Shown: positions 15,033-64,000 of the stretch, piece by piece
Position numbering within the stretch: the stretch's first letter is position 1
Layout of the letters: each line of letters begins with the position of its first letter
Assembly (NCBI GenBank): GCA_017466525.1
Contig: JAFTTY010000035.1
Span: 13,039-77,038, forward strand
DNA: 64,000 nucleotides
Direction: 5' to 3'
From: Alphaproteobacteria bacterium
GTDB lineage: Bacteria > Pseudomonadota > Alphaproteobacteria > Rs-D84
Translations under genes and position numbers: made by a program
The notes under the pieces: generated by a model
Seen by the model: the letters and a program-made list of their open reading frames with translations, nothing else
The model's database searches: none
Told to the model about the DNA's origin: nothing

Positions 15033-15061
15033 AAAAATACCGGCATTTGCCGGTGTTTTTT
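15033..15061. terminator. Bidirectional terminator between tRNA-Thr and convergent virD4
   Basis: A-run, hairpin ACCGGCATTTGCCGGT (15039-15054), then T-run. Confidence 0.8.
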
Positions 15062-17303
15062 ATTGTGTTAGCTCTTTTACCTGTTTTGTTTCCGGGTCAT
15101 ACACACGTGGTGCGCCTGGGTATCGCAACGCGCGGTGATGATGTGGCACCAGGTATTCTGGAATTGGTGCCGCCCTGCCCATCTTTACCTTGGCGGAAAT
15201 TTCTTTTTCTTTTGGTGTTTTTTCTTCAAAGTATCGCAGTGCTTCTGCCTCTATCGGGCGGTTATAGAACCCTTGGAACAATACCAACTGCTTGCCCATT
15301 TTCAATGTCATCAAATCCATTGGGCTGAACAGGTCTTCTTCTTTGGTGACTTCGGTATCTTTTCCGTCTGGGCCTTTTTCTTTCTTTTTTACTTTCTTTT
15401 TGCCAATCATGTCTGTAAAGCGTTGTGCCGTTGCCGGGTCATTTACACGCAGGATGATTTTTGCTGCACTATTTGCGATAACTGTATCTGCGGCCTTGTC
15501 GCCATATTTTTCAGCAATCTGGCTGATGTCCTGACCAACAATCAGGTATGAAACCTTTTGTCCACGACCAACGGCGGGTCCTTGTATAACTGCCTCTAAC
15601 TTATTCATTGTTGGCATTTCGTCCAACACGAACAGCGTTGGGTATGGCCCCAGTTTCTGACCGTGGTCCATATCTTCTGGTTTGTGTGCAATTAAAAAGT
15701 TTGATAACAATTCAACGAACATACTGGTAATTGGGCGGAATGCTGGTGCGTCTGCCACATTCATTGACAGGTATACCGTCACTGGTTTGACTTTGCCATC
15801 ACGTGGGTCAACCATACCGCGCAAATCGCCAAAGTGTAAATCAGAATGACGTGTGTGTTTATTAACCGCCGGATGACGGAAAATGTTCAAGCCGGCATTC
15901 ATTGTTGAAATAACAGAGCCACGTTCCTTGTCCGGTGTATTGGCCAGGTTAATAAGGGACGAAACAGCATCACTGTCATACGAATACAATTGGGCTTCGT
16001 TTACTGCTTCGTTCAAGAAGTCTTTCATTGGGTCTGCCATCATAACCATTTGGTCGCCTTGGCGTTTGCGTTCTTCGATTTGTTGGGCAACTTTGATTTG
16101 TCCTTCGACGTACCATGCCAAGAACATTGGTATTGATGCCTCGGCCCCGTGCCATTCTTTTGGTAACCCAGCCCAGGTTCCAACATGAACATAGTTGTTA
16201 ATATTTAATTCTCCACGTTGTAACAGCGCCATCGCTGCATACGCATTTGGATCGGCAGACATTGTCATATAATAATCCATCAACACCGCCGCATCTTGGG
16301 CATCAAATGTTCCATTTGATAATCTGGAATAGAAATAGTCATTTGCCTTGGCACGTTCAACCTTGGATACAATAAAGTTCACAAATCCCGTCAATGCTGC
16401 ACGTGCCGTATTTGACCAGTGTGGGTCCTTGGCATTTTCTTCGATGATTGTGTTAACAATAACCTGGATATATGTACTTTTTTCTTCTTCGGTTGCCGGC
16501 AGGTTTTCTGGTGACAATGGATTCCACGCCGGGTAATAGATACCTTTTTCTGGTTCGTCGCGTGCCGCCCAGTTTAATATAAACACCGGCCCAACGGTTG
16601 CGCGATATGCAGATGTTTTCAAATCTAATTCCGGTTTCGGGTCATTTACAATCATGGATACATTATCGCATTCCAAGATTGTTGGAATAACGCACCCGAT
16701 TGTTTTACCGGTACCTGCCGGTGCCAACAGCAATGCAGACAAACATTCGTCCATCTTTAATGCCTTGCCCTTGAAATAGCCCAATACCATCATAAAACCA
16801 CCAAACAGACCGTTTTTGTTCTTCCAGTCTGCGGCCATTTTTTTAATATCAGCCTCGTTCGCGACACGTGCAGTTTTCTCTTCGAATTTATCCTTGCTGT
16901 GTGGGTTAAATTCATCGGCCATTGTTGCGTCTGATAAAAAGTAATATCCGATAATTGGAATTAATGGCGCAATACATGCCCAGTCTGGACGGGCAACCGC
17001 GCGTGCAATCCATGCAGGAATTTCTGCCACCACAGACATCCCCAATGTTGTCACCATTTGATAAAGATATATACCAATCCAATGCCGTGTTGCCGGCGAC
17101 CAACCATAACGCCATATTTGTTCGGCCGGAAACGACATTGCGAACATCAGTGCGCCAATTAACCAAATTATAATTGCCCAACGTATCGACCAAAACTCAC
17201 GCGCCAATGGGGTTTGTTCATGTTCCTTGTATTTTGTGGAATCAAAAATCCCCAGGCCTTTGCCCTTGCCCGATGCTGATAAAAAGTTGAATTTTATTGC
17301 CAT
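15060..17303 (-). CDS. virD4: Type IV secretion coupling protein (VirD4/TraG family)
   Basis: N-terminal TM helices, Walker A LLLAPAGTGKT and Walker B TLFVLDEMPTM. The size of 747 aa is typical for a T4CP. Confidence 0.85.
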   Translation of the reverse strand: MAIKFNFLSASGKGKGLGIFDSTKYKEHEQTPLAREFWSIRWAIIIWLIGALMFAMSFPAEQIWRYGWSPATRHWIGIYLYQMVTTLGMSVVAEIPAWIARAVARPDWACIAPLIPIIGYYFLSDATMADEFNPHSKDKFEEKTARVANEADIKKMAADWKNKNGLFGGFMMVLGYFKGKALKMDECLSALLLAPAGTGKTIGCVIPTILECDNVSMIVNDPKPELDLKTSAYRATVGPVFILNWAARDEPEKGIYYPAWNPLSPENLPATEEEKSTYIQVIVNTIIEENAKDPHWSNTARAALTGFVNFIVSKVERAKANDYFYSRLSNGTFDAQDAAVLMDYYMTMSADPNAYAAMALLQRGELNINNYVHVGTWAGLPKEWHGAEASIPMFLAWYVEGQIKVAQQIEERKRQGDQMVMMADPMKDFLNEAVNEAQLYSYDSDAVSSLINLANTPDKERGSVISTMNAGLNIFRHPAVNKHTRHSDLHFGDLRGMVDPRDGKVKPVTVYLSMNVADAPAFRPITSMFVELLSNFLIAHKPEDMDHGQKLGPYPTLFVLDEMPTMNKLEAVIQGPAVGRGQKVSYLIVGQDISQIAEKYGDKAADTVIANSAAKIILRVNDPATAQRFTDMIGKKKVKKKEKGPDGKDTEVTKEEDLFSPMDLMTLKMGKQLVLFQGFYNRPIEAEALRYFEEKTPKEKEISAKVKMGRAAPIPEYLVPHHHRALRYPGAPRVYDPETKQVKELTQ

Positions 17304-31617: not shown

Positions 31618-31653
31618 TTTCATGTGAAATGAATTTTAACGTGTTGATTTTAG
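31615..31653. repeat. Left copy of a 39-bp direct repeat flanking the HExxH gene pair
   Basis: TAATTTCATGTGAAATGAATTTTAACGTGTTGATTTTAG matches 33565-33603 at 33/39 positions. It starts at the rsmG stop codon. Confidence 0.85.
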
Positions 31654-32564
31654 CGCGAATTCCAGTTTTTTAAAAAGTGCGTGTTTTTGCCGGCGATTTT
31701 GCTAATTGTAGAGTCCACTGAGTTCAAAATGCGTTGTCTTTGTTTTGTGCTGGCGGCAATCCACAGGTTTACAGGTCCTTTTTTACTTTCAAATTCCCAC
31801 ATTGGTGCCCACATTCCGCTGTTGGGCAAAAATAATGCCTCTTGCAGTTTGGCGCATTGGTTGTTTGGGGTATATTTTTTTGCGCTTCGGTTATTCATTT
31901 CGCGACGAATTGTTCCGATGTATGTTCCGCGTGCAGTTTCGCTTAGAAAGCGTTGTAATGCATTTTCCAAAACGATGTCTGCGATATGTTCTTGATTAAA
32001 GTCCGCGGGCGCATATCTCAGACTGTCGTTTGTTGTGTTTACAATCTGCTTGTCTGCATTTTTGATGATGCTTTTTTGTGTTGGGAATGCCTTATGATTT
32101 TCGTGTCTATAGTCTATCGCTTCGATAATTTCTGCGGCTGGTGCCATAATTTCATTCATGGCTGCGATTCTGCCACGTGTAAAAGAATCAAATTTAGACA
32201 CGTTTTTTGTCAGACTTGCTTTTCGTGCGTGTTCTGTTTCGTGGCGTATGGTTAGTGGTATCAGGTTGTTATTGTTGTTGCAATATCTGTGTATTTTTGG
32301 GTTGTTGCTTTGTGGGTTAAAATAGTATATAACAATGGTGTTATTGTGTGCTTTGAATTCGCCTGCTGCGTATTTGCATTTAAATTTTTCAAACTGTTCA
32401 TCTGTGACGTTTATGGTGTCTATGCGTGTTCTTATGCTTGGGCGTACTTCGGTCTTTTTTTGCGGTTGTTTATTTTGTTTGTCGCGCGTGATAAATGGTG
32501 TTGCTGTGCATGTGATTGCCAGGGCTATCCCAATTGACCAAGATGCGACTTTTTTGAATTTCAT
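31650..32564 (-). CDS. Exported HExxH protein (putative zinc metallopeptidase), paralog A
   Basis: Signal-like N-terminus. LTIRHETEHARKA is followed 25 residues later by AAMNEIMAP, an HExxH...NE arrangement like that of gluzincins. Paralogous to the next gene. Confidence 0.7.
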   Translation of the reverse strand: MKFKKVASWSIGIALAITCTATPFITRDKQNKQPQKKTEVRPSIRTRIDTINVTDEQFEKFKCKYAAGEFKAHNNTIVIYYFNPQSNNPKIHRYCNNNNNLIPLTIRHETEHARKASLTKNVSKFDSFTRGRIAAMNEIMAPAAEIIEAIDYRHENHKAFPTQKSIIKNADKQIVNTTNDSLRYAPADFNQEHIADIVLENALQRFLSETARGTYIGTIRREMNNRSAKKYTPNNQCAKLQEALFLPNSGMWAPMWEFESKKGPVNLWIAASTKQRQRILNSVDSTISKIAGKNTHFLKNWNSR

Positions 32565-32569
32565 ATTTT

Positions 32570-33517
32570 CTATCGTGTTAAATAGTTTTTTATGTTAAAA
32601 GCAATATTGTTTGGCGGCAGTTTGTCTGTGTTTGCTTGTATTATAGAATCGATTGTGTTCAGGGTTTTTTGACGTGTTTTATCGCTTGCGGCCAACCACA
32701 GGTTTGCCTGTCCGCCGGCTGTTTCAAATTGCCACATTGGTGCCCACATATCGAATTCTGGCATGAAAAAGACTTTTTGTATCGGGTCGCATTCCTGATT
32801 TGGTGTGTATGATATTTCTAGTGTGTTATAATATTCGCGTCGTAATGTTGATACGTATTGTCCGGTTTTGATTTCGCCTTTAAAGCGATCCAGTGCGTTT
32901 TTGATGACAATGTCTGCAATTTTTTGGTTGTTAAAATCGATGGGTTGTGCCGGTGTTTGTTGGTTAGTTGTATTTAATATGTTGTCGCATGCTTTTTTCA
33001 CAAATACTTTGCATGTTGGAATTGGTTTTTGGTTTGTGTAGTGGTAATCCATCGCTTCGATAATTTCGCCGGCAGGCGCCATTGTTTCATTGATGGCCGC
33101 GATGCGTGCGCGTGTTTGTGCGCTGTAATGAGGTTTAGTCATTTTTGTCATGTGTGCTTTGCGTGCGTGTTCCATTTCATGGCGCAGTGTTAGTGGCAGC
33201 ATCCCGTTTTGGTGATTACAGGCGTGATTAATGTATTCTGCATTGTCTGTTGGATTATAGTATGTTACCGTAACCTTGTTTTGTAATGGTGTAAAAACGC
33301 CGGCGATTGCCTTTGGGTATTCGATGTTAAAGTTTTGTCTGTTCAGGTTTAGTGTATCTATTTCGACAATTAGTTTTGGACGTGGTTTATAGCTTAGGAT
33401 TCTTGCGCGTTCAATGTCTTTATCGTGAGCGTTTTTTACAAGCAATGCCGGCCCCAGCACGGCTGTGACGGTCATTGCGATTGATAATGATAGTGTACAT
33501 AATTTATCAAACTTCAT
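32570..33517 (-). CDS. Exported HExxH protein (putative zinc metallopeptidase), paralog B
   Basis: Signal-like N-terminus and LTLRHEMEHARKA ... AAINETMAP. Blocks shared with paralog A: IADIV..NAL.RF, MWAPMW.FE and NLW.AAS. Confidence 0.7.
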   Translation of the reverse strand: MKFDKLCTLSLSIAMTVTAVLGPALLVKNAHDKDIERARILSYKPRPKLIVEIDTLNLNRQNFNIEYPKAIAGVFTPLQNKVTVTYYNPTDNAEYINHACNHQNGMLPLTLRHEMEHARKAHMTKMTKPHYSAQTRARIAAINETMAPAGEIIEAMDYHYTNQKPIPTCKVFVKKACDNILNTTNQQTPAQPIDFNNQKIADIVIKNALDRFKGEIKTGQYVSTLRREYYNTLEISYTPNQECDPIQKVFFMPEFDMWAPMWQFETAGGQANLWLAASDKTRQKTLNTIDSIIQANTDKLPPNNIAFNIKNYLTR

Positions 33518-51412: not shown

Positions 51413-52519
51413 TTATTTCTTGGCGTTATTCAGTCGCAGTTGTCCACATGCAGAACCGATATCTGTACCGCGTTCACGGCGAATACGCGTATGAATTCCG
51501 TTTTTTATCAGTGTATCTTGAAATCTGTGTACTGCGTTCCCAGATGGCGACGCAAAGTCGCGTTCGTCAACCGCGTTCCATGGTATCAGATTTACCATAC
51601 AGTTTTTACCTTTTAACAATTCGGACAGTTTTTCTGCATATTCTGGGGTTGCGTTATACAAAACAGTTTCGCCGTTTTCGTCGCGTTTGCCCAGCAATAT
51701 ATATTCAATCATCAATTGTCTGTTGTGATTATCTGTAAAACGCCATGCCGCATCTAAAACATCATTTAATTTATATTTGTTGTTTATCGGCATGATTTGA
51801 CTGCGCAGTTCATCTGTTGGTGCGTGCAGTGAAATTGCCAAATTAATTGGTCGGCCCCATTCAATCAGTCTGTCAATCCCCGGCACAATTCCGCATGTTG
51901 ATACGGTTATTCTGCGCCACCCAATTCCCATATCTGAATTTGCGCGTTCAATAAAGTTAATAACATTTTCTGTGTTTTGCAGCGGTTCGCCCGTACCCAT
52001 AATCACGATATGTGACACATCGCCATTGTTTGCGTCCCCATTTGGACGAATTGGTTTGTCTGCAAATTTATCGCCACGCAGTTCCCATTGCGCCACCAGT
52101 ATCTGTGCAAATATTTCATTCGTGGTCAGATTTCTTTTTAACCCCAACAGTGTGCTGGCACAGAATTTACAGCCCATTGCACATCCAGCCTGTGAACTGA
52201 CACATACGCTGTTGCCATACGTTGTGCGCATTAATACACATTCGATTTGTTCGCCATCGTGCAAGCCCAACAAAAACTTGGTCGTTTCGCCGTCCGATGA
52301 TTCCAATTTTTTTACAATTTGTACAGGCAATGTTTGTGCCACATCGTCTAAATCACGACGCAGTTTTTCCGGAATATTTTTCATGGACATAAAATCTGGT
52401 GCGCCACGATTTAACCATTCGCGAATTTGTTTTGCACGAAATTTTGGCTGTCCCATATCTGTAATAAATTTTTCCAGTTCTGGGTCTGTAAAATTAAAAA
52501 GTATTGGTTTGTTTATCAT
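51413..52519 (-). CDS. rlmN: 23S rRNA/tRNA m2A methyltransferase RlmN (radical SAM)
   Basis: FRAKQIREW start, CAMGCKFCAS cluster, GEPL and a C-terminal GSACGQL motif. Confidence 0.95.
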   Translation of the reverse strand: MINKPILFNFTDPELEKFITDMGQPKFRAKQIREWLNRGAPDFMSMKNIPEKLRRDLDDVAQTLPVQIVKKLESSDGETTKFLLGLHDGEQIECVLMRTTYGNSVCVSSQAGCAMGCKFCASTLLGLKRNLTTNEIFAQILVAQWELRGDKFADKPIRPNGDANNGDVSHIVIMGTGEPLQNTENVINFIERANSDMGIGWRRITVSTCGIVPGIDRLIEWGRPINLAISLHAPTDELRSQIMPINNKYKLNDVLDAAWRFTDNHNRQLMIEYILLGKRDENGETVLYNATPEYAEKLSELLKGKNCMVNLIPWNAVDERDFASPSGNAVHRFQDTLIKNGIHTRIRRERGTDIGSACGQLRLNNAKK

Positions 52520-53340
52520 AATTTATATCTGTCGTCATTGATTACAATAACTGCCTTGCGACGCAGTTGTTTTAATTGTTGGTCTGCCTGGAACATCGCC
52601 TGTTTGTACATTGTGTTTTGCTTAATCATATCGTCCAGGTTTTTGTATTCGTCGGTCTTTTTTGTGCTGCATACCAGTAATACAGAATTATCTGCGCGTT
52701 TTGACCATGTCAGCAGCGGCAGCGTTGCAACGCGTTCGCGAATATCGGCAGACAGTTCATATTGTTTTGCTGTAAATTTTTGTGGGATTCCACCCAACGC
52801 CTCTGCCATTTTGATTGCGCCGTCGCATGATTTTGGCTTGGTCAGCTTTTCTGCAATGTCTGCTGGAATATCTGTCAAACGAATAATTGTCATTTCGATT
52901 GGCAGTCCATGTTCGCGTGCCAAATTTGCCTTTTCATTTGCGATATCTTCTTTTGATGTTGATATTGTTGGCATAACTGTTCGCGCAACAATGATTTGCC
53001 ATGCAATTTCCGCGCGCAGTGCATTTTTTGCCATTGCTTTTTCAGACGCGCTAAGTTCCCCCAGATTTAATTTTTTTAATTCCTTATCAACAATATCGTC
53101 TTCGGGCACAGCGTTAAAGTTGCCTGCGTATTTTATTTTTATATCGTCATCAATAATGTTTTGCAGCGCGACACGGCGATTGTCTGTGGATGTTTTTCCT
53201 TGTTTTGCCATTAATTGTGTACGCACAGTAATATCTGTATCTGTGATTGGCGTGCCATTAACGGTTGCGACAACCTGGGCTGCGAATGCCGGAATGGTTA
53301 ACAAAGTCGACATTAACATAGCAATGTTTAGTATTTTCAT
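52516..53340 (-). CDS. SurA-like periplasmic chaperone (SurA N-terminal domain protein)
   Basis: Signal peptide followed by VATVNGTPITDTDI, as in the SurA N-domain. It lies immediately downstream of lptD, as surA does in many Proteobacteria. No clear parvulin motif is seen. Confidence 0.6.
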   Translation of the reverse strand: MKILNIAMLMSTLLTIPAFAAQVVATVNGTPITDTDITVRTQLMAKQGKTSTDNRRVALQNIIDDDIKIKYAGNFNAVPEDDIVDKELKKLNLGELSASEKAMAKNALRAEIAWQIIVARTVMPTISTSKEDIANEKANLAREHGLPIEMTIIRLTDIPADIAEKLTKPKSCDGAIKMAEALGGIPQKFTAKQYELSADIRERVATLPLLTWSKRADNSVLLVCSTKKTDEYKNLDDMIKQNTMYKQAMFQADQQLKQLRRKAVIVINDDRYKL

Positions 53341-56505: not shown

Positions 56506-56534
56506 TTGGCGAAGTTCAAAAAACATGTTATAAT
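56506..56534 (+). promoter_or_regulatory. Sigma70-like promoter for the large Cys-rich protein gene
   Basis: TTGGCG, 17-nt spacer, TATAAT; 27 nt upstream of the ATG, with GGAG as the SD. Confidence 0.45.
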
Positions 56535-56560
56535 GAATACAAAAAATATGGAGTCAGGGA

Positions 56561-59500
56561 ATGTCTTTTCTGAAAAATACAGTTAGTTTAGTGGCGCTTT
56601 TTAGCGTAATTCCGGCTGCCCAGGCGGTCACGGCACGTGCCAGTGCGATACCTACGTCGAATGTCGTGGTGACGGCTGCGGGGCGTCGTATGCCGACAAT
56701 GACCGCGTATTTGGGTGCGGCTGGTTCTGGTTCTGGAAGTATATCTGGTTCTACATCATCTGGCTCTACGTCATCGTCTACACTGTTGGAAAATACAGAA
56801 TGTATTGATGCCTATACTGGTTGTATCAAGGGGGCAGAGGCATGCGGTCCAAACTTCGAAGAATGTACGACCAAGGTTTTATTCCATGGCAAAATGCCAC
56901 AATGTCTCAGCACGCTGGCCCAATGTTCGTCTGGCGGTGTCAGCAGCTTGTTTGGTACATCAGATGTTTCTGCGTTATCAACGGTTGCAACAACAAATAC
57001 CTATGGCGAAGTGACGGATTATGCATATCCAACCGACGGCAGTGTTTTGGGACAAATGATTACCGCTGCGGCGATTGAAAACAAGTATGATACGTCAACG
57101 TGCGTTCGTCGCTTTACATCATGCTTAAAGAAAGAAAGCGTCTGTGGCGAAGATTTTGAGTTGTGTACAACAAATACCGAATTCCGTAAACAACGTGTGT
57201 TTTGTGATTCTACACTTGCGCGTTGTCAGTCTGATGGTTTGATTGAATTGTTGGGATCTGCGAACATGACCGCAATGCCAACCGCAACCAGTCGTGTTGG
57301 CGAAATGATTAGCGAAGGTGCGGCCTTGGCTGCGATAAACGCGGTATCCACGTGTTACAAGGTTGCAGACCAGTGTATCTTGAATGCATGTTCTGCAAAT
57401 CCGTTCAAGTGTCACGAAAATGCAAGTCAGGCGGTCAGTGATTTGGCTGAAAGCATTTCAACGGGTGTTGCGCCTGCGACGGCGGCAGATATGACTGCTG
57501 TGTTGACCAAGTCTGCGATTTCTGGCTATATCAAGAATTCCTGTATGGATACGATTGGTTCGAATAAATATTGCTATGCAACATTTATCGGCGATGGTCA
57601 GATGCCAACATCATCGCAATTGCGTGACGAAGATAACAAAGAAGAAATTTATAGCCTGGCATACAGTTCGCGTATGAATTCTGGGATGAAGGCAAAAATT
57701 TCAGAAATGATTAACAAATTCGATACCAAGGCCAAGGAAAAGTGTGTAAACACAATCAAAACATGTGCAATGCGTGTTTGTGGTTCTGGGTCTGGTGCAT
57801 CTTGTTATGCTCAGGTATTTGGTGCAACAAACAAGACGATTAATAACGCCTATACCCACAATGAAATCAAGGTTGGGTGTGAAGCTGTTGTTAATTCTGA
57901 TGCGAATTGTCAATATGCGGCCCAGAATCCAAATTCTACGGGTACATATAACTATACATTTTCTGATGCGAACACATTCAGCACCTTGTTCCCTGTATAT
58001 GACGATGGTGCCGAAGGCGATCCAATTGGCGTAATTGCATCTTTGAATGCATCCTTGGCAACAAGTTATAGTGATGCCGCTATCGCCCAGATGAAAAAGC
58101 AATGTCAATCTGTTGCAACATCTTGTGTGCGTTCACTGTGCGGTACAGATTTTGTAAATTGCTATCGCAATCGTACGGACATCTATTCGTCATTGACCAA
58201 CACGGGCAGTACATCTTTCGATAAGTCTATGAACAAGGTCGGCGGTGTTCTGGATTATACAATTGTGTTGGGCTTGTGCGTTGACACTGTTAAAAACGCA
58301 TCTGTCTGTGAAGAACATTTGGCAATAGAGGCCAACAAGATTAAAATGTCTGATAAATCTGGCAGTTCGTCAAACTGGGGTACCGGTTCTGTACGTTCTG
58401 ACTGGGTTGATGCCGGTTCTGCATCAAAAATGGACGAAGTTCTGGAACAGGTTCAGGCTGTTGATGAAAATGGTAACGAACTGTGTTCGAACAAGGCCGG
58501 CGACCAGGGACCATGTTATACAGTTGACGCGTCTGGTGCGGTATATGACACACCGGTAAAGATTGGTTATGTCACATACGTTGAATCCCAGGCGGCAAGT
58601 TCATTGTTCAAAGACCTGATCTATGATTTGGAAATCGAGGCCCAGGCAAAATATAATGCCAAATTGACCAAGCAGCAGAATATGTGCTTGTCATCGAACA
58701 GTGGTGGTATTATTGGGGCCAAGGACACTGGTTCAACATATATGTGGGTTAAGTTGAAATCAACCAAGGTTCCAGCGAACTATTCTGTATCTGGTTTGAA
58801 AACATCGCAATTCGCGGCCAGTAACGAATTGTATGGTTCGTTCTGTCGTATCCGTGTGACATTGCATTCCGAAGACAAGGATATCCAAGAAGCGATCCAA
58901 AAGGGTGCAGATTGGTCAACGGCATACTTTGCAGCGGGTGATCCGTTCACATGTGGTTCATGGATTCCACAGGCAAAGTTAGAAGAAATTGCCGCAGCGG
59001 CGGGCGAACGTGCGCGCGAAGAAAAAGATCAAGAACAAGGTGATTGGAAGGGTTGGATAACTGCCTTGGGTACGATTGGTGGTGGTGTTGGTGGTGCATA
59101 CCTGGGCAAGGGCATCAGCGACGGTTCTATCATGGGCGGCTTAACCGGCAATACCAAGACAAACACCGCCAAGGATGACTTTGAAAAATTACAGAAAAAC
59201 TGTAAGTCGTATGCACGTGTCGTAAAATCGAATTTGACCCGAACTGGTTGGGCAACTGCGAAAGCTTACGCCGAAAAATTGCAAGGTATTTTGAGCGACA
59301 TGGGTATCACTGCTTATAGTACTCCTCAAGAATTGTCTGGTGTCGGCGCTTCGATTACTACTCCGAACTGCAAGGCCTCCAACGCCAAAGCTGATGCCGC
59401 CAACGACCAATATTGTTGTGTCGCAGGTAACTATGAAACTGTAACAGAATATGGTGGTTATTGTTATAACGATCAAGATGTAACAAAGTTTAAAACTCCT

Positions 59501-59821
59501 GTAGAGACTTGGATTAAACAAGTAGAACTTGCGTGTGAAGAAGCGACAGAAGAAGATTTTATGGAAAATAAAGGCGATGATTACAAAAAAGCACAAAAGA
59601 AAACTCGTACATCATCTGGTATCGGTGCGGCGGTTGGTGCGATTGCTGGTGGTATCTTGACATACAAGATTACAGACTCTATTGAAGATGCCGCCAAAGA
59701 CAAAGCAGAACGTCAGGCAATCGAAGAATTTATGGAAAACATCGGTTCCAAGATTCATTGCTTTATCGGTTCTGACGAAGTCGCAACCTATGGCGAAACA
59801 GTATCGACCAGTATGGAATAA
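56561..59821 (+). CDS. Large exported Cys-rich repeat protein with C-terminal glycine-zipper-like segments, 1086 aa, unknown function
   Basis: Signal peptide ...IPAAQA, a Ser/Gly-rich linker, at least five modules with fixed Cys spacing, and two Gly-rich hydrophobic segments near the C-terminus (GWITALGTIGGGVGGAYLG; GIGAAVGAIAGGILTY). Confidence 0.8.
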   Translation: MSFLKNTVSLVALFSVIPAAQAVTARASAIPTSNVVVTAAGRRMPTMTAYLGAAGSGSGSISGSTSSGSTSSSTLLENTECIDAYTGCIKGAEACGPNFEECTTKVLFHGKMPQCLSTLAQCSSGGVSSLFGTSDVSALSTVATTNTYGEVTDYAYPTDGSVLGQMITAAAIENKYDTSTCVRRFTSCLKKESVCGEDFELCTTNTEFRKQRVFCDSTLARCQSDGLIELLGSANMTAMPTATSRVGEMISEGAALAAINAVSTCYKVADQCILNACSANPFKCHENASQAVSDLAESISTGVAPATAADMTAVLTKSAISGYIKNSCMDTIGSNKYCYATFIGDGQMPTSSQLRDEDNKEEIYSLAYSSRMNSGMKAKISEMINKFDTKAKEKCVNTIKTCAMRVCGSGSGASCYAQVFGATNKTINNAYTHNEIKVGCEAVVNSDANCQYAAQNPNSTGTYNYTFSDANTFSTLFPVYDDGAEGDPIGVIASLNASLATSYSDAAIAQMKKQCQSVATSCVRSLCGTDFVNCYRNRTDIYSSLTNTGSTSFDKSMNKVGGVLDYTIVLGLCVDTVKNASVCEEHLAIEANKIKMSDKSGSSSNWGTGSVRSDWVDAGSASKMDEVLEQVQAVDENGNELCSNKAGDQGPCYTVDASGAVYDTPVKIGYVTYVESQAASSLFKDLIYDLEIEAQAKYNAKLTKQQNMCLSSNSGGIIGAKDTGSTYMWVKLKSTKVPANYSVSGLKTSQFAASNELYGSFCRIRVTLHSEDKDIQEAIQKGADWSTAYFAAGDPFTCGSWIPQAKLEEIAAAAGERAREEKDQEQGDWKGWITALGTIGGGVGGAYLGKGISDGSIMGGLTGNTKTNTAKDDFEKLQKNCKSYARVVKSNLTRTGWATAKAYAEKLQGILSDMGITAYSTPQELSGVGASITTPNCKASNAKADAANDQYCCVAGNYETVTEYGGYCYNDQDVTKFKTPVETWIKQVELACEEATEEDFMENKGDDYKKAQKKTRTSSGIGAAVGAIAGGILTYKITDSIEDAAKDKAERQAIEEFMENIGSKIHCFIGSDEVATYGETVSTSME

Positions 59822-59854
59822 TTCACACCGATGTTGAATTATCTAACAAAACAA

Positions 59855-59881
59855 AAAACGGGAACCCTTTCCCGTTTTTTT
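59855..59881 (+). terminator. Intrinsic terminator
   Basis: Hairpin CGGGAACCCTTTCCCG followed by T7. Confidence 0.85.
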
Positions 59882-59895
59882 GTTTGTTTTTGAAG

Positions 59896-59980
59896 TTCCC
59901 CTCCTGTGGAGGGGTGGTGCAAAGCACCGGGGAGGGTATTCCCCTCCTGTGGAGGGGTGTCCGCAGGACGGGGAGGGTTA
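59896..59980. repeat. Two tandem GC-rich palindromic units (family 2)
   Basis: Unit 1 is 59896-59938 and unit 2 is 59939-59980. Each is TT-CCCCTCC-TGT-GGAGGGG-T-(second hairpin)-GGGGAGGG. The second hairpin is GGTGC/GCACC in unit 1 and GTCC/GGAC in unit 2. Confidence 0.9.
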
Positions 59981-60080
59981 AAGTCCCCCCCTTACACACA
60001 CTTGTCATTGCCACAAAGCAACCACGCAGCGTTATGATGCAAATAGTGGGGATGTACATATCATGCATGCAGTAAAAAAT

Positions 60081-61052: not shown

Positions 61053-61517
61053 CTATTTATATTCGTCCCAGTCTGGGCCAACTATACAATCAGACAAATC
61101 TATTGTCAATTCGCGCCCTTTATCAGATATTGGGCATGTCAGAATACCGGTTGTTGTTGCCTGGTCCGCATCACGCGTGGCATTACGATATGCGAATTTT
61201 ATTTCTGTCGGGGCGGCAACGCACGCGATATGTAAATCATTATCTGTTTTGCCATCCGGCCCAACCCAAACACGCACGCCATAGCCCAAACCATAACATG
61301 GGAAGCCATCCAGATAGTATAATACCAACCCACGTCCCACTAATTTTTTATCAGAAATAAATTTCCCGTTATATTCATTTAGTGTTAAACCTGTCACCGC
61401 TTCCCAGTCTGTACTGGTGGAAAAAATACTAACCCTTGGTTGTTGTGGTGGCGTTGTGGCGGCATTCGCGCCACATGTTAACAACAGACCGGCAAATATA
61501 GATGCAATTTTTTTCAT
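61053..61517 (-). CDS. Hypothetical exported protein, 154 aa
   Basis: Signal peptide MKKIASIFAGLLLTCGANA. Its start overlaps the stop of the upstream zinc-ribbon gene. Confidence 0.6.
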   Translation of the reverse strand: MKKIASIFAGLLLTCGANAATTPPQQPRVSIFSTSTDWEAVTGLTLNEYNGKFISDKKLVGRGLVLYYLDGFPCYGLGYGVRVWVGPDGKTDNDLHIACVAAPTEIKFAYRNATRDADQATTTGILTCPISDKGRELTIDLSDCIVGPDWDEYK

Positions 61518-62038
61518 TTCTTTTCCTGTGGGACTTGTAAATCTGCAAAATGTGCAGAAATCTTTTTTACGCCGGCAGGTTGCGCTGATAAAATATGACT
61601 AAAACTGACCGTTGCACCCGAATCCAGCAATGTTGCCGATGGCATAAATTTCTGTTGTGCCAGAACCCGTCCTTCGTCATCAGTTGAAACAATGATTAAA
61701 TCAGGCACGCCATAAATTTCATCAGACACATTTTGAATTTCGCCATTTACAACGACGTGCAACAATCCATTTTCGTCGGTTGTGGTTTCAACGCTTAAAA
61801 CATTTGCGATTAATGGACCACGATTAGCCTTTTTTGCCTGGTGGTGTGTGATAACCGCCACTGTAAATATAATCGCAGACAACAGTGCGCACAGCGCCGC
61901 AAAGAACATCAGCCATGCATTTTTACGTGGTTGTGTTGTGACAACCCATTCATGACCACATACGGCACACTTTACCGGCGTGTTTGGTATTCTGTCCAGG
62001 TTGTATTCAGTCTTACAAAAGTCACATTTTATTTTCAT
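61514..62038 (-). CDS. MJ0042-type zinc-ribbon membrane protein (DUF3426-like)
   Basis: CDFC...(16)...CAVCGHEW zinc ribbon, one TM helix, then a beta-rich C-terminal domain. Confidence 0.7.
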   Translation of the reverse strand: MKIKCDFCKTEYNLDRIPNTPVKCAVCGHEWVVTTQPRKNAWLMFFAALCALLSAIIFTVAVITHHQAKKANRGPLIANVLSVETTTDENGLLHVVVNGEIQNVSDEIYGVPDLIIVSTDDEGRVLAQQKFMPSATLLDSGATVSFSHILSAQPAGVKKISAHFADLQVPQEKK

Positions 62039-62058: not shown

Positions 62059-63375
62059 TTATTCTAAATGCAAACTGTGATATTTTCCGCTGACACGTTT
62101 TTGTATTTCGTGTATTGCGTTCATATAGTCTGCCACAGTCGCGTTTTTATTTGTCGCAACCGCGCCAAATATTTGACCTGATTCGGTTCCGTTGCCTTTT
62201 TCATTTCGTGTGGCCAAAACAGCCATACGATTTAATTCGACAAAAGACGCGTCTGCAAAGTTCGCAGTATTTGATTGTGCGTCCCAATAATACGCCGGAT
62301 TTGTTGAATCTTCGATTCTGTTGTTAACAACCAGACGTGGCGTTATAGAACCTGTAAAACCAACGGTTACAAACATTGCTTCTATTCTGCCGGATGTCAT
62401 ATTCAACGATTGATTAATTTTCATAATGGCAAAGTCATCTGTTGCATCGATGTTTAACCCGCCCAGCGTTAAATCAGATACCCACATGTTTTCTGCGGTC
62501 AGTGATGAAAACTTTGCGACATCCCCCAATGTTAATCCGCCCGCGATTTCAATGTTTTTTGCATCTGATGACAACATTCCTGCAACCATTGTGTTTACGG
62601 ATTGATAGTTGCCGTCTATACTGGTTCTATTTTGAAAAATGACATTGTCAGAAACGATTTTATTAACAGTAGTATATTCGCTAATTTCTGTAAATTCTGC
62701 ATTTATAAATGTTGTATTTTTTATATCGTGTCCCCCCAGGTTTAATGCAGACATCATTTTTGCATCGTCTGGGTTTTGTGACGGTACGCGCCACAGATAC
62801 AGGGTTTCATCACGATTAACCTTGGTTGTTTCAATAATTGCATTGTCTACATCCAGGTCCAAATCAATTGCATCAGCATGCCATGTGCCGAATGTTCCAT
62901 ATGCAGTTGTTTCATCTATGAATCCCATTGAACCACTGGACAGGTTAACAATTTCACGTGTACGCAGTGGTGTTATGTCGTCCGATACACGTACCACAAT
63001 ACCTTGTAACGTAGATTGTCCAATACCATCACTAGATTTCAATATTCGTAATTGATATTTTTTATCGCCTTCATTTACGATGGTATCCGCCAAACCAAAT
63101 TCCGCCAAGTCAGCAATATCGACCCGCGTGATGTTGCGTCCAACTGTTTTTAATAATTCAGGTCTGTTTGCGACGATATATCTTTCCAGTGCCGTTTGTA
63201 TTTGCGACATCTGATTTGTTATAGCAATATTTTGTGCACGTATGGCGGCATTTTGTTGATTCTTGAATGCGAACGGAATTATAATCGCCGCCAATGCAAT
63301 ACTAAGCAGCAGTTCAACCAGCATACTGCCACGCGAATTGTTTTTATCTGCAAAAATACATCTGTTGTTTTTCAT
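62059..63375 (-). CDS. Pilin/pseudopilin-like protein with prepilin-type N-terminus and a large repeat-rich C-terminal domain
   Basis: N-terminus ...NNSRG|SMLVELLLSIALAAIIIPFAF: Gly, then Glu at +5, then a hydrophobic helix, the class III signal pattern. The remaining 400 aa are N/I/T-rich and look beta-helix-like. Confidence 0.65.
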   Translation of the reverse strand: MKNNRCIFADKNNSRGSMLVELLLSIALAAIIIPFAFKNQQNAAIRAQNIAITNQMSQIQTALERYIVANRPELLKTVGRNITRVDIADLAEFGLADTIVNEGDKKYQLRILKSSDGIGQSTLQGIVVRVSDDITPLRTREIVNLSSGSMGFIDETTAYGTFGTWHADAIDLDLDVDNAIIETTKVNRDETLYLWRVPSQNPDDAKMMSALNLGGHDIKNTTFINAEFTEISEYTTVNKIVSDNVIFQNRTSIDGNYQSVNTMVAGMLSSDAKNIEIAGGLTLGDVAKFSSLTAENMWVSDLTLGGLNIDATDDFAIMKINQSLNMTSGRIEAMFVTVGFTGSITPRLVVNNRIEDSTNPAYYWDAQSNTANFADASFVELNRMAVLATRNEKGNGTESGQIFGAVATNKNATVADYMNAIHEIQKRVSGKYHSLHLE

Positions 63376-64000
63376 TTATTGAATTACGTCTGTTGTTTTG
63401 TTTGTTGCCTGCCATCCGTCGCGCATCAGTGCGTCAAATTCGGTGTTCTTTGGTGGTTCTGGTCGTGTTGCGCGTGATACAGAAAAACTTGAAAAATGTG
63501 GTGGCTTGGTTGACGGGAAAACCCAGGAACCAATTTTTAACGGTGACGTTGTTGACATCAACAATTCGCCTGAAACGGTCAGACCAAAATTATCATAGAA
63601 CATCATTTCTTCGGCATAAATATATGGTGTATAAACAGAATTTGCAGTTATTCCTGTGAATCCGCTGATTGTACGCGTACTGTCTGATTTTAATGTCATA
63701 TTGTTTGCAACGTTTATTTTGTTTGTTATTGTTGCGCGGTCTGCGATTATACGTCCTGTGGTTGTATATCCGTTACCATTGATATTATCAGACGTTATGT
63801 TTTTAAAACCAGACATGTCAGCAGATACACGAATATTCCCAAGATTAATATTTGCGTTATCTATATTTGCGCCTGTGGAAAAATAGACATTGTTTGCAAC
63901 GATGTCAGTCGCGTCAACAAATGTAGAGTTTATATTCTTTATCTTTGCAGATTCTGCATTTAGATTTGCAACGTTGTAAACATGATGGTTTGCCATGTCT
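63376..64000 (-). CDS. N/I-rich repeat (beta-helix-like) protein, probably 5'-truncated by the window edge
   Basis: The frame is still open at nt 64000. Degenerate repeats (NINSTFVDATDIVANNVYF, NIDNANINLGNIRV, NITSDNINGNG). The stop abuts the start of the pilin-like gene. Confidence 0.55.
   Translation of the reverse strand, partial: DMANHHVYNVANLNAESAKIKNINSTFVDATDIVANNVYFSTGANIDNANINLGNIRVSADMSGFKNITSDNINGNGYTTTGRIIADRATITNKINVANNMTLKSDSTRTISGFTGITANSVYTPYIYAEEMMFYDNFGLTVSGELLMSTTSPLKIGSWVFPSTKPPHFSSFSVSRATRPEPPKNTEFDALMRDGWQATNKTTDVIQ

What the first reader, a model, noticed from the sequence alone, without database searches (positions are those of the whole stretch)
56561..59821. 1086-aa exported protein built from repeated fixed-spacing cysteine modules, ending in glycine-zipper-like segments
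After a signal peptide (AAQA|V) and a Ser/Gly-rich linker, the protein contains two long modules with identical Cys spacing, C-x6-C-x6-C-x6-C-x12-C-x6-C. Module 1 is ECIDAYTGCIKGAEACGPNFEECTTKVLFHGKMPQCLSTLAQC. Module 2 is TCVRRFTSCLKKESVCGEDFELCTTNTEFRKQRVFCDSTLARC. There are at least three shorter C-x6-C-x4-C-x6/7-C modules: CYKVADQCILNACSANPFKC, CVNTIKTCAMRVCGSGSGASC and CQSVATSCVRSLCGTDFVNC. Near the C-terminus, two Gly-rich hydrophobic stretches (GWITALGTIGGGVGGAYLG and GIGAAVGAIAGGILTY) resemble glycine-zipper membrane motifs. I know of no characterised bacterial family with this architecture. It has its own promoter and terminator and lies divergent from the lpt operon. It is a candidate disulfide-rich surface or adhesin-like protein.
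Basis: partly seen in the sequence, partly recalled or inferred. Interest (0 to 1): 0.7.

Follow-up and report, generated by a model that had tools for sequence, protein, structure and literature searches.

The report
Novel disulfide-rich envelope protein family
This gene encodes a large exported protein held together by about 20 disulfide bonds, with a fast-changing "head" between two membrane-like segments; it defines a previously undescribed family found only in tiny-genome gut Alphaproteobacteria and matches no known sequence family or 3-D fold.

Summary
ORF 56561-59821(+) encodes a 1086-aa protein with a Sec-type signal peptide, 42 Cys and the stated Cys spacings. There are 13 Cys gaps of exactly 6 residues; the maximum in 20,000 shuffles was 7. 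It belongs to a narrow family: 264 clusters among 1.84 billion representatives, all "hypothetical", from Candidatus Enterousia/order Rs-D84 and related uncultured gut Alphaproteobacteria with ~1 Mb genomes. Pfam, NCBIfam, PHROG, PADLOC and PDB sequence searches give nothing significant. A confident AlphaFold model (pLDDT 79.7) has no Foldseek match in PDB or BFVD. Across 87 members down to 22% identity, the invariant columns are 25 Cys plus one Trp. Mature Cys counts are even in 128 of 133 members, which argues for disulfides. The head is variable even within 90%-identity clusters (14-85% variable sites against 2-5% in the core). My best reading is an extracytoplasmic envelope protein that displays a diversifying head, possibly through the outer membrane. 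Function is inferred, not shown. Pilin-like or secretin genes lie nearby in several lineages, which is only a lead.

The parts
56506..56534 (+). Sigma-70-like promoter, TTGGCG-17 nt-(TG)TATAAT
   Evidence: Consensus scan, 10 of 12 matches with an extended -10 TG. The region as a whole is not enriched in such sites (8 found, 7.8 expected), so this is position-consistent only.
56549..56552 (+). Ribosome-binding site GGAG upstream of the ATG
   Evidence: Read directly from the sequence.
56561..56626 (+). Signal peptide, residues 1-22, MSFLKNTVSLVALFSVIPAAQA|V
   Evidence: Hydrophobic core at residues 7-19 and an AxA cleavage motif. The N-terminus is highly conserved in homologs. No SignalP run was available.
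56627..56788 (+). N-terminal linker, residues 23-76. It carries the conserved motif T-A-R-P-S ... R-R-M-P-T-M (R26, R43 and P45 at >=90%) and a Ser/Gly-rich low-complexity stretch.
   Evidence: Alignments A1 and A2. The motif is kept in relatives at 22-30% identity. pLDDT is below 50.
56789..57346 (+). Two compact six-Cys helical-hairpin modules A1 (residues ~77-176; Cys 81, 88, 95, 102, 115, 122) and A2 (~177-262; Cys 181, 188, 195, 202, 215, 222)
   Evidence: Regex. hhalign A1 against A2 gives probability 99.2%. pLDDT is above 90, with helix-loop-helix secondary structure. A1 is absent from about 26% of the deep alignment and 22 of 186 full-length members carry one A-module, so A1 is an Enterousia-lineage duplication.
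57347..58360 (+). Three expanded six-Cys modules: B1 (Cys 265, 272, 277, 284, 328, 338), B2 (395, 402, 407, 415, 440, 450) and B3 (515, 522, 527, 534, 573, 583)
   Evidence: All 18 Cys are invariant in 87 sequences. 185 of 186 full-length members have exactly three such units. The region is helical with pLDDT mostly above 90.
58427..59050 (+). Alpha/beta domain, residues ~623-830, with a C642-x9-C652 beta-hairpin pair, Cys 709, 762 and 798, and invariant W729
   Evidence: Model secondary structure and pLDDT of 80-95; conservation.
59054..59143 (+). Glycine-zipper segment 1, residues 832-861 (GWITALGTIGGGVGGAYLG...), a 19-residue uncharged stretch
   Evidence: GxxxGxxxG registers. The uncharged stretch is conserved family-wide, 16-35 residues, median 23. 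pLDDT is below 50.
59144..59614 (+). Hypervariable helical 'head', residues 862-1018, bracketed by conserved Cys 881 and 992
   Evidence: Mean identity is 0.19 against 0.69-0.79 for the core modules. Length is 108-298 aa, and the Cys count is even in 117 of 120 homologs. At strain level, variable sites are 14-85% against 2-5% in the core.
59615..59671 (+). Glycine-zipper segment 2, residues 1019-1037 (SGIGAAVGAIAGGILTY)
   Evidence: Pfam Gly-zipper_Omp E 0.14 at 1019-1037. GxxxGxxxG at 1022-1030. Conserved uncharged stretch, median 23 residues.
59672..59821 (+). C-terminal helix plus beta-hairpin tail, residues 1038-1086, with invariant C1067, then the stop codon
   Evidence: pLDDT 78-95. C1067 is invariant. 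It makes the conserved Cys count outside the head even (35 + 1).
59853..59880 (.). Bidirectional intrinsic-terminator-like hairpin
   Evidence: A 12-bp stem with T-runs on both strands.

Best explanation
The gene encodes the founding example, in this window, of an undescribed lineage-specific family of extracytoplasmic cell-envelope proteins. The family belongs to partner-dependent, genome-reduced gut Alphaproteobacteria (Candidatus Enterousia, order Rs-D84, and relatives). The protein is exported by Sec and its signal peptide is cleaved. In the oxidising envelope it folds into a largely alpha-helical body of five six-Cys modules. The inferred pairing in each module is C1-C6, C2-C5 and C3-C4: two antiparallel helices stapled by nested disulfides, plus a small loop disulfide. 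An alpha/beta domain follows. From that domain a two-helix stalk leads out through two weakly hydrophobic glycine-zipper segments to a hypervariable, disulfide-paired helical head. The chain then returns to the alpha/beta domain, probably tied there through C1067. The conserved body supplies a protease-resistant scaffold or binding platform. The two glycine-zipper segments embed in a membrane, most likely as a hairpin across or in the outer membrane, or they drive oligomerisation. The head is the part exposed to outside selection by phage, host immunity or partner-cell specificity. The likely biological role is envelope or surface contact (adhesion or recognition). What is shown: the export signal, the module anatomy, Cys invariance and parity, the hypervariability of the head, the conservation of the Gly segments, and the absence of any known family or fold. 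What is inferred: the disulfide connectivity, the membrane and its topology, and the contact role.
For: Anatomy and significance of the Cys spacing come. The family is narrow and uncharacterised: 888 word-indexed hits, all hypothetical; 264 clusters among 1.84e9 representatives; 167 GTDB species genomes, nearly all Enterousia or uncultured gut Alphaproteobacteria. There is no Pfam, NCBIfam, PHROG, PADLOC or PDB sequence match. A confident AF2 model (pLDDT 79.7, 580 residues at >=90) has no Foldseek match (best E 1.3 in PDB, 0.13 in BFVD). The invariant columns in 87 sequences are 25 Cys plus W729. The mature Cys count is even in 128 of 133 members while ranging from 34 to 46. The head has an even Cys count in 117 of 120, so both the body and the head sit in an oxidising, non-cytoplasmic compartment. 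Gly segments are conserved as uncharged stretches of about 23 residues despite sequence turnover. They are the low-confidence hinges between a confident stalk and a confident head in the model. The head is hypervariable between species and within 90% clusters. The organism is a diderm: LptD, LptF/G, OmpA-family and Skp genes are in the window or locus. Rs-D84 bacteria are predicted to be partner-dependent, with many unknown membrane proteins (PMC12306168).
Against: There is no experimental localisation. The Gly segments are only weakly hydrophobic (Kyte-Doolittle ~0.9-1.4) and fall below the Pfam glycine-zipper thresholds, so they could be flexible hinges rather than membrane spans. Alpha-helical spanning of the outer membrane is uncommon. 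No Dsb oxidase was found in the 64-kb window. Rs-D84 genomes are reported to lack respiratory chains, so the source of oxidising power is unexplained. The neighbourhood gives no conserved operon partner.
Confidence: 0.6

Rival explanations
1. It is a component, substrate or tip/adhesin partner of a type IV pilus-like or T2SS-like machine. The Cys-rich protein would fold and oxidise in the periplasm. It would then either be presented by, or secreted through, the apparatus encoded by the neighbouring pilin-like and secretin genes, and mediate attachment to a partner cell.
For: In Enterousia, three 400-450-aa genes with class-III (prepilin-like) N-termini, plus a 152-aa pilin-like gene, lie within 10 kb. 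They are co-directional with the Cys-rich gene in most species. In L088, where the Cys-rich protein is only 27% identical, the same trio (46-52% identity) and the small pilin (54%) again flank the gene in a rearranged order. In L084, TcpQ and Secretin genes follow directly downstream. In L083, a homolog of the small pilin lies about 1.1 kb upstream. The Cys core and the pilin-like trio diverge at similar rates.
Against: L085, L086 and L087 show no such neighbours. Housekeeping genes (RluD, DnaX) are interspersed, so the linkage may be inherited synteny in slowly rearranging reduced genomes. The pilin-like calls rest on N-terminal motifs seen by eye and one weak ComGG hit (E 0.011). There is no similarity to PilY1/PilC-type adhesins or to known T2SS substrates.
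Confidence: 0.2
2. It is a secreted or surface-released membrane-inserting toxin or effector. The two glycine-zipper segments at the end of a coiled-coil stalk would insert into a target (host or partner) membrane, as in alpha-pore-forming toxins, and the Cys-rich body would give extracellular stability.
For: The best PDB sequence hits, though not significant, are XaxA/YaxA (E 0.05-0.3). They align the toxin's Gly-rich hydrophobic segment and its flanking helices to Gz2 and the C-terminal helix. IpaB and colicin fragments also appear, at E 2-8. Glycine zippers are common in pore formers (own knowledge).
Against: E-values are above any threshold and the alignment is low-complexity plus coiled-coil. 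There is no Foldseek match to ClyA-family structures. The gene appears as one locus per assembly among the 80 GTDB species loci returned and is broadly conserved in the lineage, which is unlike typical toxins. No partner subunit or dedicated secretion genes are consistently adjacent. The hypervariable part lies between the hydrophobic segments, which suits display better than pore lining.
Confidence: 0.07
3. The cysteines are metal ligands rather than disulfides, as in a periplasmic Cu/Zn/Fe-S storage or redox protein resembling Cys-lined helical bundles. The periodic i/i+7 spacing would place thiols along one helix face.
For: Heptad-spaced Cys on helices. The organism is an anaerobe reported to lack respiratory chains, so classical DsbB re-oxidation is unclear. 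No Dsb gene is in the window.
Against: Cys-count parity is preserved (even in 128 of 133) while absolute numbers vary from 34 to 46, and the fast-evolving head keeps even counts. Pairing predicts this; metal sites do not. There are no CxxC or His partners and no match to copper-storage or ferredoxin families. The symmetric spacing (81+122 = 88+115) fits antiparallel stapling.
Confidence: 0.05
4. It is an inner-membrane-anchored periplasmic scaffold. Gz1 and Gz2 would be ordinary inner-membrane helices, the 'head' would be a cytoplasmic loop evolving neutrally, and the protein would have a housekeeping envelope role.
For: Two uncharged segments of about 19-23 residues flanked by Lys/Arg. The signal peptide places the N-domain in the periplasm.
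Against: The head keeps an even Cys number in 117 of 120 homologs, with conserved bracketing Cys 881/992. That is unexpected in the reducing cytoplasm. The head is predicted as a folded helical domain (pLDDT 80-94 for residues 869-932 and 967-1008) and is a strain-level hotspot, not a neutral linker. The hydrophobicity of Gz1 (~0.9-1.0) is low for a Sec stop-transfer.
Confidence: 0.08

Closest known systems
Glycine-zipper membrane motifs (Pfam Gly-zipper_Omp PF13488; Rick_17kDa_Anti / Gly-zipper 2TM PF05433, e.g. the Rickettsia 17-kDa antigen and SlyB/Pcp-type outer-membrane lipoproteins)
   Same: It has two short uncharged GxxxGxxxG-rich segments in an exported alphaproteobacterial envelope protein. 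There are weak HMM hits to these families.
   Different: Scores are below threshold. There is no lipobox. The two segments are about 170 residues apart, around a folded variable domain, rather than forming a tight hairpin. They are attached to an 800-aa Cys-rich body that those families lack.
Disulfide-stapled helical hairpins (the mitochondrial CHCH / twin-CX9C fold; plant alpha-hairpinins with CX3C-Xn-CX3C). This comparison is from my own knowledge.
   Same: The inferred principle is the same: two antiparallel helices are cross-linked by nested disulfides set by fixed Cys spacing.
   Different: The spacing is C-x6-C (one heptad), with a third loop disulfide. There are five tandem modules in a 1086-aa bacterial exported protein. 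There is no sequence or Foldseek similarity.
Cysteine-rich, disulfide-cross-linked envelope or variant surface proteins (Chlamydia OmcB/OmcA; Giardia VSPs; Plasmodium DBL/RIFIN-type helical variant antigens). This comparison is from my own knowledge.
   Same: It has many conserved Cys in an extracytoplasmic protein of a host-associated microbe, with a conserved scaffold combined with a hypervariable exposed region.
   Different: There is no homology: no Pfam hits, and the only RIFIN Foldseek hit was E 6.5 on the low-confidence first model. Module grammar differs. The gene is single-copy rather than part of a multigene family, and no silent cassettes were found in the window.
ClyA-family alpha-pore-forming toxin subunits XaxA/YaxA (PDB 6GY8, 6EK7)
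   Same: Both have a Gly-rich hydrophobic segment embedded between long charged helices. These are the best, though non-significant, PDB sequence hits.
   Different: E is 0.05-0.3 only. There is no structural match, no partner B subunit, and no Cys-rich body in the toxins.

Membership tests
Pfam glycine-zipper families (PF13488 Gly-zipper_Omp, PF05433 Rick_17kDa_Anti) | HMM match at or above the gathering score | tested here: not met
   PF13488 scores 12.5 bits against a cutoff of 25, E 0.14, at residues 1019-1037. PF05433 reaches E 0.0049 in only 1 of 37 family members.
Pfam glycine-zipper families (PF13488, PF05433) | GxxxGxxxG small-residue register in a short uncharged segment | tested here: met
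   Registers are at 837-849 and 1022-1030. The uncharged stretches are conserved family-wide, median 23 residues.
Pfam glycine-zipper families (PF13488, PF05433) | Membrane insertion of the segment | not testable with these tools
   No topology predictor or experiment was available. Kyte-Doolittle hydrophobicity of ~0.9-1.4 is borderline.
ClyA-family alpha-pore-forming toxins (XaxA/YaxA) | Significant sequence or structural similarity to the ClyA-family tail/neck/head helical fold | tested here: not met
   The PDB profile search gives E 0.05-0.3, confined to the Gly-rich segment plus coiled coil. There is no ClyA-family hit in Foldseek.
Type V autotransporter / trimeric autotransporter adhesins | C-terminal outer-membrane beta-barrel translocator domain | tested here: not met
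   There are no Pfam or NCBIfam autotransporter hits. The predicted C-terminus is helices plus a short beta-hairpin.
Chlamydial cysteine-rich outer membrane complex proteins (OmcA/OmcB) | Match to the Chlam_OMP3/OMP6 family models | tested here: not met
   No such hit in the Pfam scan at E <= 10, nor in 37 family members.
CHCH / twin-CX9C helical hairpin domain | Twin CX9C motifs in a helix-turn-helix, and a match to the family model | tested here: not met
   The dominant spacing is C-x6-C. The C-x9-C pairs here are single, not twin. There is no Pfam hit. The resemblance is one of principle only.
Type IV pilus tip adhesins (PilY1/PilC) or T2SS substrates | Homology to PilY1 domains, or demonstrated dependence on the pilus/secretin machine | tested here: not met
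   There is no family or fold match. Only gene proximity to pilin-like or secretin genes in some lineages. Dependence on the machine is not testable here.
Disulfide-bonded extracytoplasmic protein (general class) | A signal peptide plus conserved, paired cysteines | tested here: met
   The signal peptide is seen by eye and is conserved. 25 Cys columns are invariant. Mature Cys counts are even in 128 of 133 members. Actual oxidation state is not testable here.

The most novel reading that the evidence does not exclude
The protein would be a new kind of outer-membrane display device. A conserved, disulfide-stapled periplasmic body would push a glycine-zipper alpha-helical hairpin through the outer membrane. 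That hairpin would present a rapidly diversifying, disulfide-paired head on the cell surface. The device would work together with the neighbouring giant pilin-like proteins as the partner-cell or host recognition apparatus of the obligately partner-dependent Rs-D84 Alphaproteobacteria. It would be oxidised by a non-canonical, quinone-independent disulfide-forming pathway.
Probability: 0.15. Interest if true: 0.8.

Novelty: categorically new. Interest (0 to 1): 0.6.

Why it matters
Rs-D84/Enterousia are widespread gut bacteria of humans, livestock and poultry. Their genomes are about 0.75-1 Mb, and they lack full glycolysis, the TCA cycle, respiration and standard nutrient transporters, so they are thought to live off a partner (PMC12306168). 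How they contact that partner is unknown. This 3.3-kb gene is retained widely in the lineage: relatives turn up in 167 GTDB species genomes. It has a confident predicted fold with no match in PDB or BFVD. It also combines an invariant disulfide scaffold with a strain-level hypervariable head, which is the signature expected of a key interface molecule. It gives a concrete target for localisation, antibody or phage-receptor studies, and strain typing. It raises a testable biochemical puzzle: how about 20 disulfides are made in an anaerobe reported to lack respiratory chains. It would also add a new Cys-module grammar and fold to protein family databases.

Tried and rejected
These lines led nowhere or were rejected:

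- Pfam, NCBIfam, PHROG and PADLOC scans of the protein gave nothing significant, and a Pfam scan of 37 diverse members gave nothing either.
- The PDB profile sequence search returned only noise-level helical or Gly-rich hits. I inspected the XaxA alignment and rejected it as low-complexity plus coiled coil.
- The first AF2 model, built on a 24-sequence alignment, was too poor to use (pLDDT 54.7), and its Foldseek run was uninformative.
- The second model was confident but still had no match in PDB or BFVD. AlphaFold DB was not available.
- Model coordinates were not exposed, so disulfide geometry could not be measured.
- A viral-contig scan found no relatives. One distant member (L083) sits among phage-like genes, but this is not general.
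- A search for silent cassette copies of the variable head in the window found none.
- A search for DsbA/DsbB-like CxxC proteins among the window's 58 ORFs found none. The only hits were cytoplasmic types such as a TrxB-like protein and radical-SAM enzymes.
- Exact-sequence look-ups of two other window ORFs failed, probably because the called start codons differ.
- Two literature searches found no description of this family.
- hhalign between the A and B modules gave only weak support (best E 5.7e-4, probability 29%). The 'five homologous six-Cys modules' view is therefore an interpretation, not a demonstrated homology.


Full report
**Observation**

The ORF at 56561..59821 (+) is real and encodes 1086 aa. 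It has 42 Cys. The two C-x6-C-x6-C-x6-C-x12-C-x6-C modules (residues 81-122 and 181-222) and the three C-x6-C-x4-C-x6/7-C modules (265-284, 395-415, 515-534) are exactly as quoted.

Thirteen Cys-Cys gaps equal 6 residues, and the maximum in 20,000 shuffles was 7. Profile-profile comparison of family sub-alignments shows that the two long modules are true duplicates (probability 99.2%, E 7e-20).

A fourth C-x9-C pair lies at 642/652.

A consensus promoter (56506-56534), a GGAG ribosome-binding site and a bidirectional terminator hairpin (59853-59880) flank the gene.

**Family and organism**

The word-indexed search returned 888 homologs. The best 120 are 56-73% identical over essentially full length. 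All are unnamed or 'hypothetical protein', and none has a precomputed Pfam domain.

An exhaustive HMM search of 1.84 billion representatives found only 264 clusters at E <= 1e-3.

In GTDB species genomes, 167 stretches encode a relative. The 80 retrieved loci are almost all Candidatus Enterousia or 'uncultured Alphaproteobacteria/Rickettsiales' MAGs from guts of ruminants, birds, humans and other animals, and they include a closed 958,618-bp chromosome. Each of the 80 loci comes from a different assembly, so among these the gene appears once per genome.

More distant members (22-33% identity) come from other uncultured 'Alphaproteobacteria' or 'Rickettsiales' MAGs.

Enterousia belongs to order Rs-D84. 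Its genomes are 0.75-1.0 Mb, lack the TCA cycle, respiratory chains and standard transporters, and are interpreted as partner-dependent (PMC12306168).

The window itself is housekeeping: MutS, TruB, S15, RlmN, LptD, LptF/G, RluD, DnaX, OmpA-family, Skp, MreB, SerRS and BipA. The lpt and OmpA/Skp genes indicate a diderm envelope.

**No known family or fold**

Pfam, NCBIfam, PHROG and PADLOC gave no significant hit. Nor did 37 diverse members scanned individually.

A family profile against all PDB sequences gave at best E 0.05, to XaxA. On inspection, this aligns only a Gly-rich hydrophobic segment and its flanking charged helices.

With a 24-sequence alignment AlphaFold was poor (pLDDT 54.7). 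With an 87-sequence alignment reaching 22% identity it became confident: mean pLDDT 79.7, pTM 0.56, and 580 residues at >=90.

That model has no Foldseek match. The best hit is E 1.3 in PDB and E 0.13 in BFVD, and the long alignments have TM-scores of 0.1 or less. AlphaFold DB could not be searched.

**Cysteines define the family**

In the 120 closest homologs, all 35 Cys of residues 81-798 are 100% conserved.

In the 87-sequence alignment, the only invariant columns are 25 Cys and W729. The remaining core Cys are >=95% conserved, except C652 (76%) and those of module A1. A1 is simply absent from about a quarter of members.

Distant members carry one A module and three B units with the same spacings. 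Of 186 full-length members, 185 have exactly three 'four-Cys plus C-x9-C' units. A-module copy number is 2 in 159 members and 1 in 22.

The number of Cys in the mature protein is even in 128 of 133 members, although it ranges from 34 to 46. This argues that essentially all Cys are paired, giving 17-23 disulfides. It argues against metal ligation.

Combining the spacing with the predicted secondary structure gives an inferred module layout: helix carrying C1 and C2, loop or helix end carrying C3 and C4, then helix carrying C5 and C6. The sums 81+122 and 88+115 are equal. From this I infer a common six-Cys module with nested C1-C6 and C2-C5 staples and a local C3-C4 bridge, present five times (A1, A2, B1-B3).

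**C-terminal apparatus**

After the alpha/beta domain (623-830) the model shows the following elements:

- a long helix at 804-826;
- a low-confidence Gly-rich segment at 832-868;
- a confident helical domain at 869-932 and 967-1008;
- a second low-confidence Gly-rich segment at 1009-1036;
- a confident helix at 1033-1059;
- a beta-hairpin containing invariant C1067.

Both Gly segments contain GxxxGxxxG registers. They are conserved throughout the family as uncharged Gly/Ala/Leu/Val stretches with a median length of 23 residues, even though their sequences turn over.

The domain between them is the outstanding feature:

- Mean identity to the query is 0.19, against 0.69-0.79 for the core modules.
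- Its length is 108-298 aa.
- tblastn cannot detect it at E <= 1e-3 over more than half its length in any other species locus.
- Within >=90%-identity clusters, 14-85% of its sites vary, against 2-5% in the Cys core.
- Despite this, it keeps an even Cys count in 117 of 120 homologs, with conserved bracketing Cys 881 and 992.

Outside this head the conserved Cys number 35 + C1067 = 36. This suggests that the C-terminal tail is disulfide-tied back to the alpha/beta domain.

Both the body and the head therefore appear to be in an oxidising compartment. That disfavours the simple model of two inner-membrane helices with a cytoplasmic loop. Two options remain. In one, the Gly hairpin spans or embeds in the outer membrane, with the head on the surface. 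In the other, the whole protein lies on one side of a membrane and the Gly segments act as hinges or oligomerisation zippers.

**Rates of divergence**

Within Enterousia the Cys core is 57-77% identical to the query. RluD is 70-84%, DnaX 73-85%, and the neighbouring pilin-like proteins 50-74%.

In L088, DnaX is still 83% identical but the Cys core is only 27%, and the protein has one A module. The body can therefore also change abruptly between lineages. This leaves open which side of the outer membrane it occupies.

**Genomic context**

The arrangement 'divergent from lpt' holds only for this species and its closest relative (L001). In most Enterousia the order is pilin-like 451, 402, 421 aa, then p174, p154, RluD and the Cys-rich gene, all co-directional.

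Distant relatives sit among unrelated housekeeping genes, so there is no conserved operon.

There is nevertheless a recurring proximity to type IV pilus-like genes:

- In L088 the pilin-like trio and the small pilin flank the gene, in a rearranged order.
- In L083 a small-pilin homolog lies nearby.
- In L084 TcpQ and Secretin genes lie immediately downstream.

The pilin-like assignment rests on G|xxxxE-hydrophobic N-termini seen by eye and a weak ComGG hit. I treat the link as a lead and give it 0.2 as a rival explanation.

**Verdict**

The object is a real, conserved, lineage-restricted protein family with a confident predicted fold and module grammar that match nothing in Pfam, NCBIfam, PHROG, PADLOC, PDB or BFVD. 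On that basis I rate it categorically new at the family and fold level.

Its building principles have precedents: disulfide-stapled helical hairpins, glycine zippers, and a conserved scaffold carrying a hypervariable exposed domain. Its function is inferred only.

The most likely mechanism is an extracytoplasmic, disulfide-rigidified envelope protein that anchors through its glycine-zipper pair and displays a diversifying head for contact with the outside world (partner cell, host or phage). My confidence is 0.6 for the general statement and about 0.35 for the specific outer-membrane-spanning topology.

Noticed in passing
window 62059-63375 (-), 63376-63996 (-, runs off the window); L081 15499-19366 (-) and L081 21479-21937 (+): There are three consecutive large genes (421/438, 402 and 451 aa), plus a 152-aa gene, whose products begin with type-IV-prepilin-like signals: ..RG|SMLVELLLSIALAAIIIPF, ..RG|ASVMEVLLAMAIIVMVSPF, ..RG|NFLLQAMLALALIFAFIPF and ..G|RSLIEVIGVMAIAGV. 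They have no significant Pfam or NCBIfam match (ComGG E 0.011 only). They are conserved (46-74% identity) next to the Cys-rich gene in Enterousia and in the distant locus L088. These giant pseudopilins are themselves uncharacterised.
   Followed up: partly
L084 13832-16354 (+): In a distant relative (P0270, a ~30%-identical Cys-rich protein), TcpQ-like and Secretin genes lie directly downstream on the same strand.
   Followed up: partly
window 61053-61517 (-) and 61514-62038 (-): Two small conserved neighbours lie between the pilin-like genes and RluD in nearly all Enterousia loci. p154 is an exported 154-aa protein with 5 Cys and no family match. p174 has an N-terminal MJ0042-type zinc ribbon, one TM helix and a weak FxLYD-like C-terminal domain.
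   Followed up: partly
window 59895-59995: A GC-rich element sits in a ~43% GC genome. It has two exact copies of the 17-nt palindrome CCCCTCCTGTGGAGGGG (59898 and 59941; none elsewhere in the window, 0 expected) and folds strongly (-59.2 kcal/mol, z -3.1). It lies between the terminator and the 3' end of RluD, at the junction of the species-specific inversion of the Cys-rich gene.
   Followed up: partly
window 56627-56710 (protein residues 23-50): A short motif follows immediately after the signal peptide: [ST]-A-R-P-[SA]-[VIM] ... R-[RMAQ]-[MAVG]-P-[TS]-[ML]. R26, R43 and P45 are >=90% conserved, down to members at 22% identity, although the motif sits in an otherwise variable, disordered linker. 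Its function is unknown; it could be a sorting, processing or docking signal.
   Followed up: no
window 15060-17303 (-): A VirD4/TraG-type type IV secretion coupling protein (T4SS-DNA_transf, E 4.5e-51) is encoded in this ~1 Mb reduced genome.
   Followed up: no
L083 4939-9843 and 18111-18932: The most divergent family member (P0260) is flanked by phage-like genes: T7-type terminase RNaseH-like domain, head-tail connector, Bbp19, phage lysozyme and capsid_2. This suggests a prophage or GTA-like region next to the gene in that MAG. No family member was found on IMG/VR viral contigs.
   Followed up: partly
window 52516-53340 (-): A 274-aa exported protein between LptD and RlmN looks SurA-like by eye (..VATVNGTPITD..) and by position, but it has no Pfam hit at E <= 0.01. 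Many envelope genes of this lineage escape current family models.
   Followed up: no
window 31650-32564 (-) and 32570-33517 (-): Two adjacent ORFs of 304 and 315 aa have hydrophobic, signal-peptide-like N-termini, comparable lengths and no Pfam match. They may be paralogs; similarity between them was not tested.
   Followed up: no
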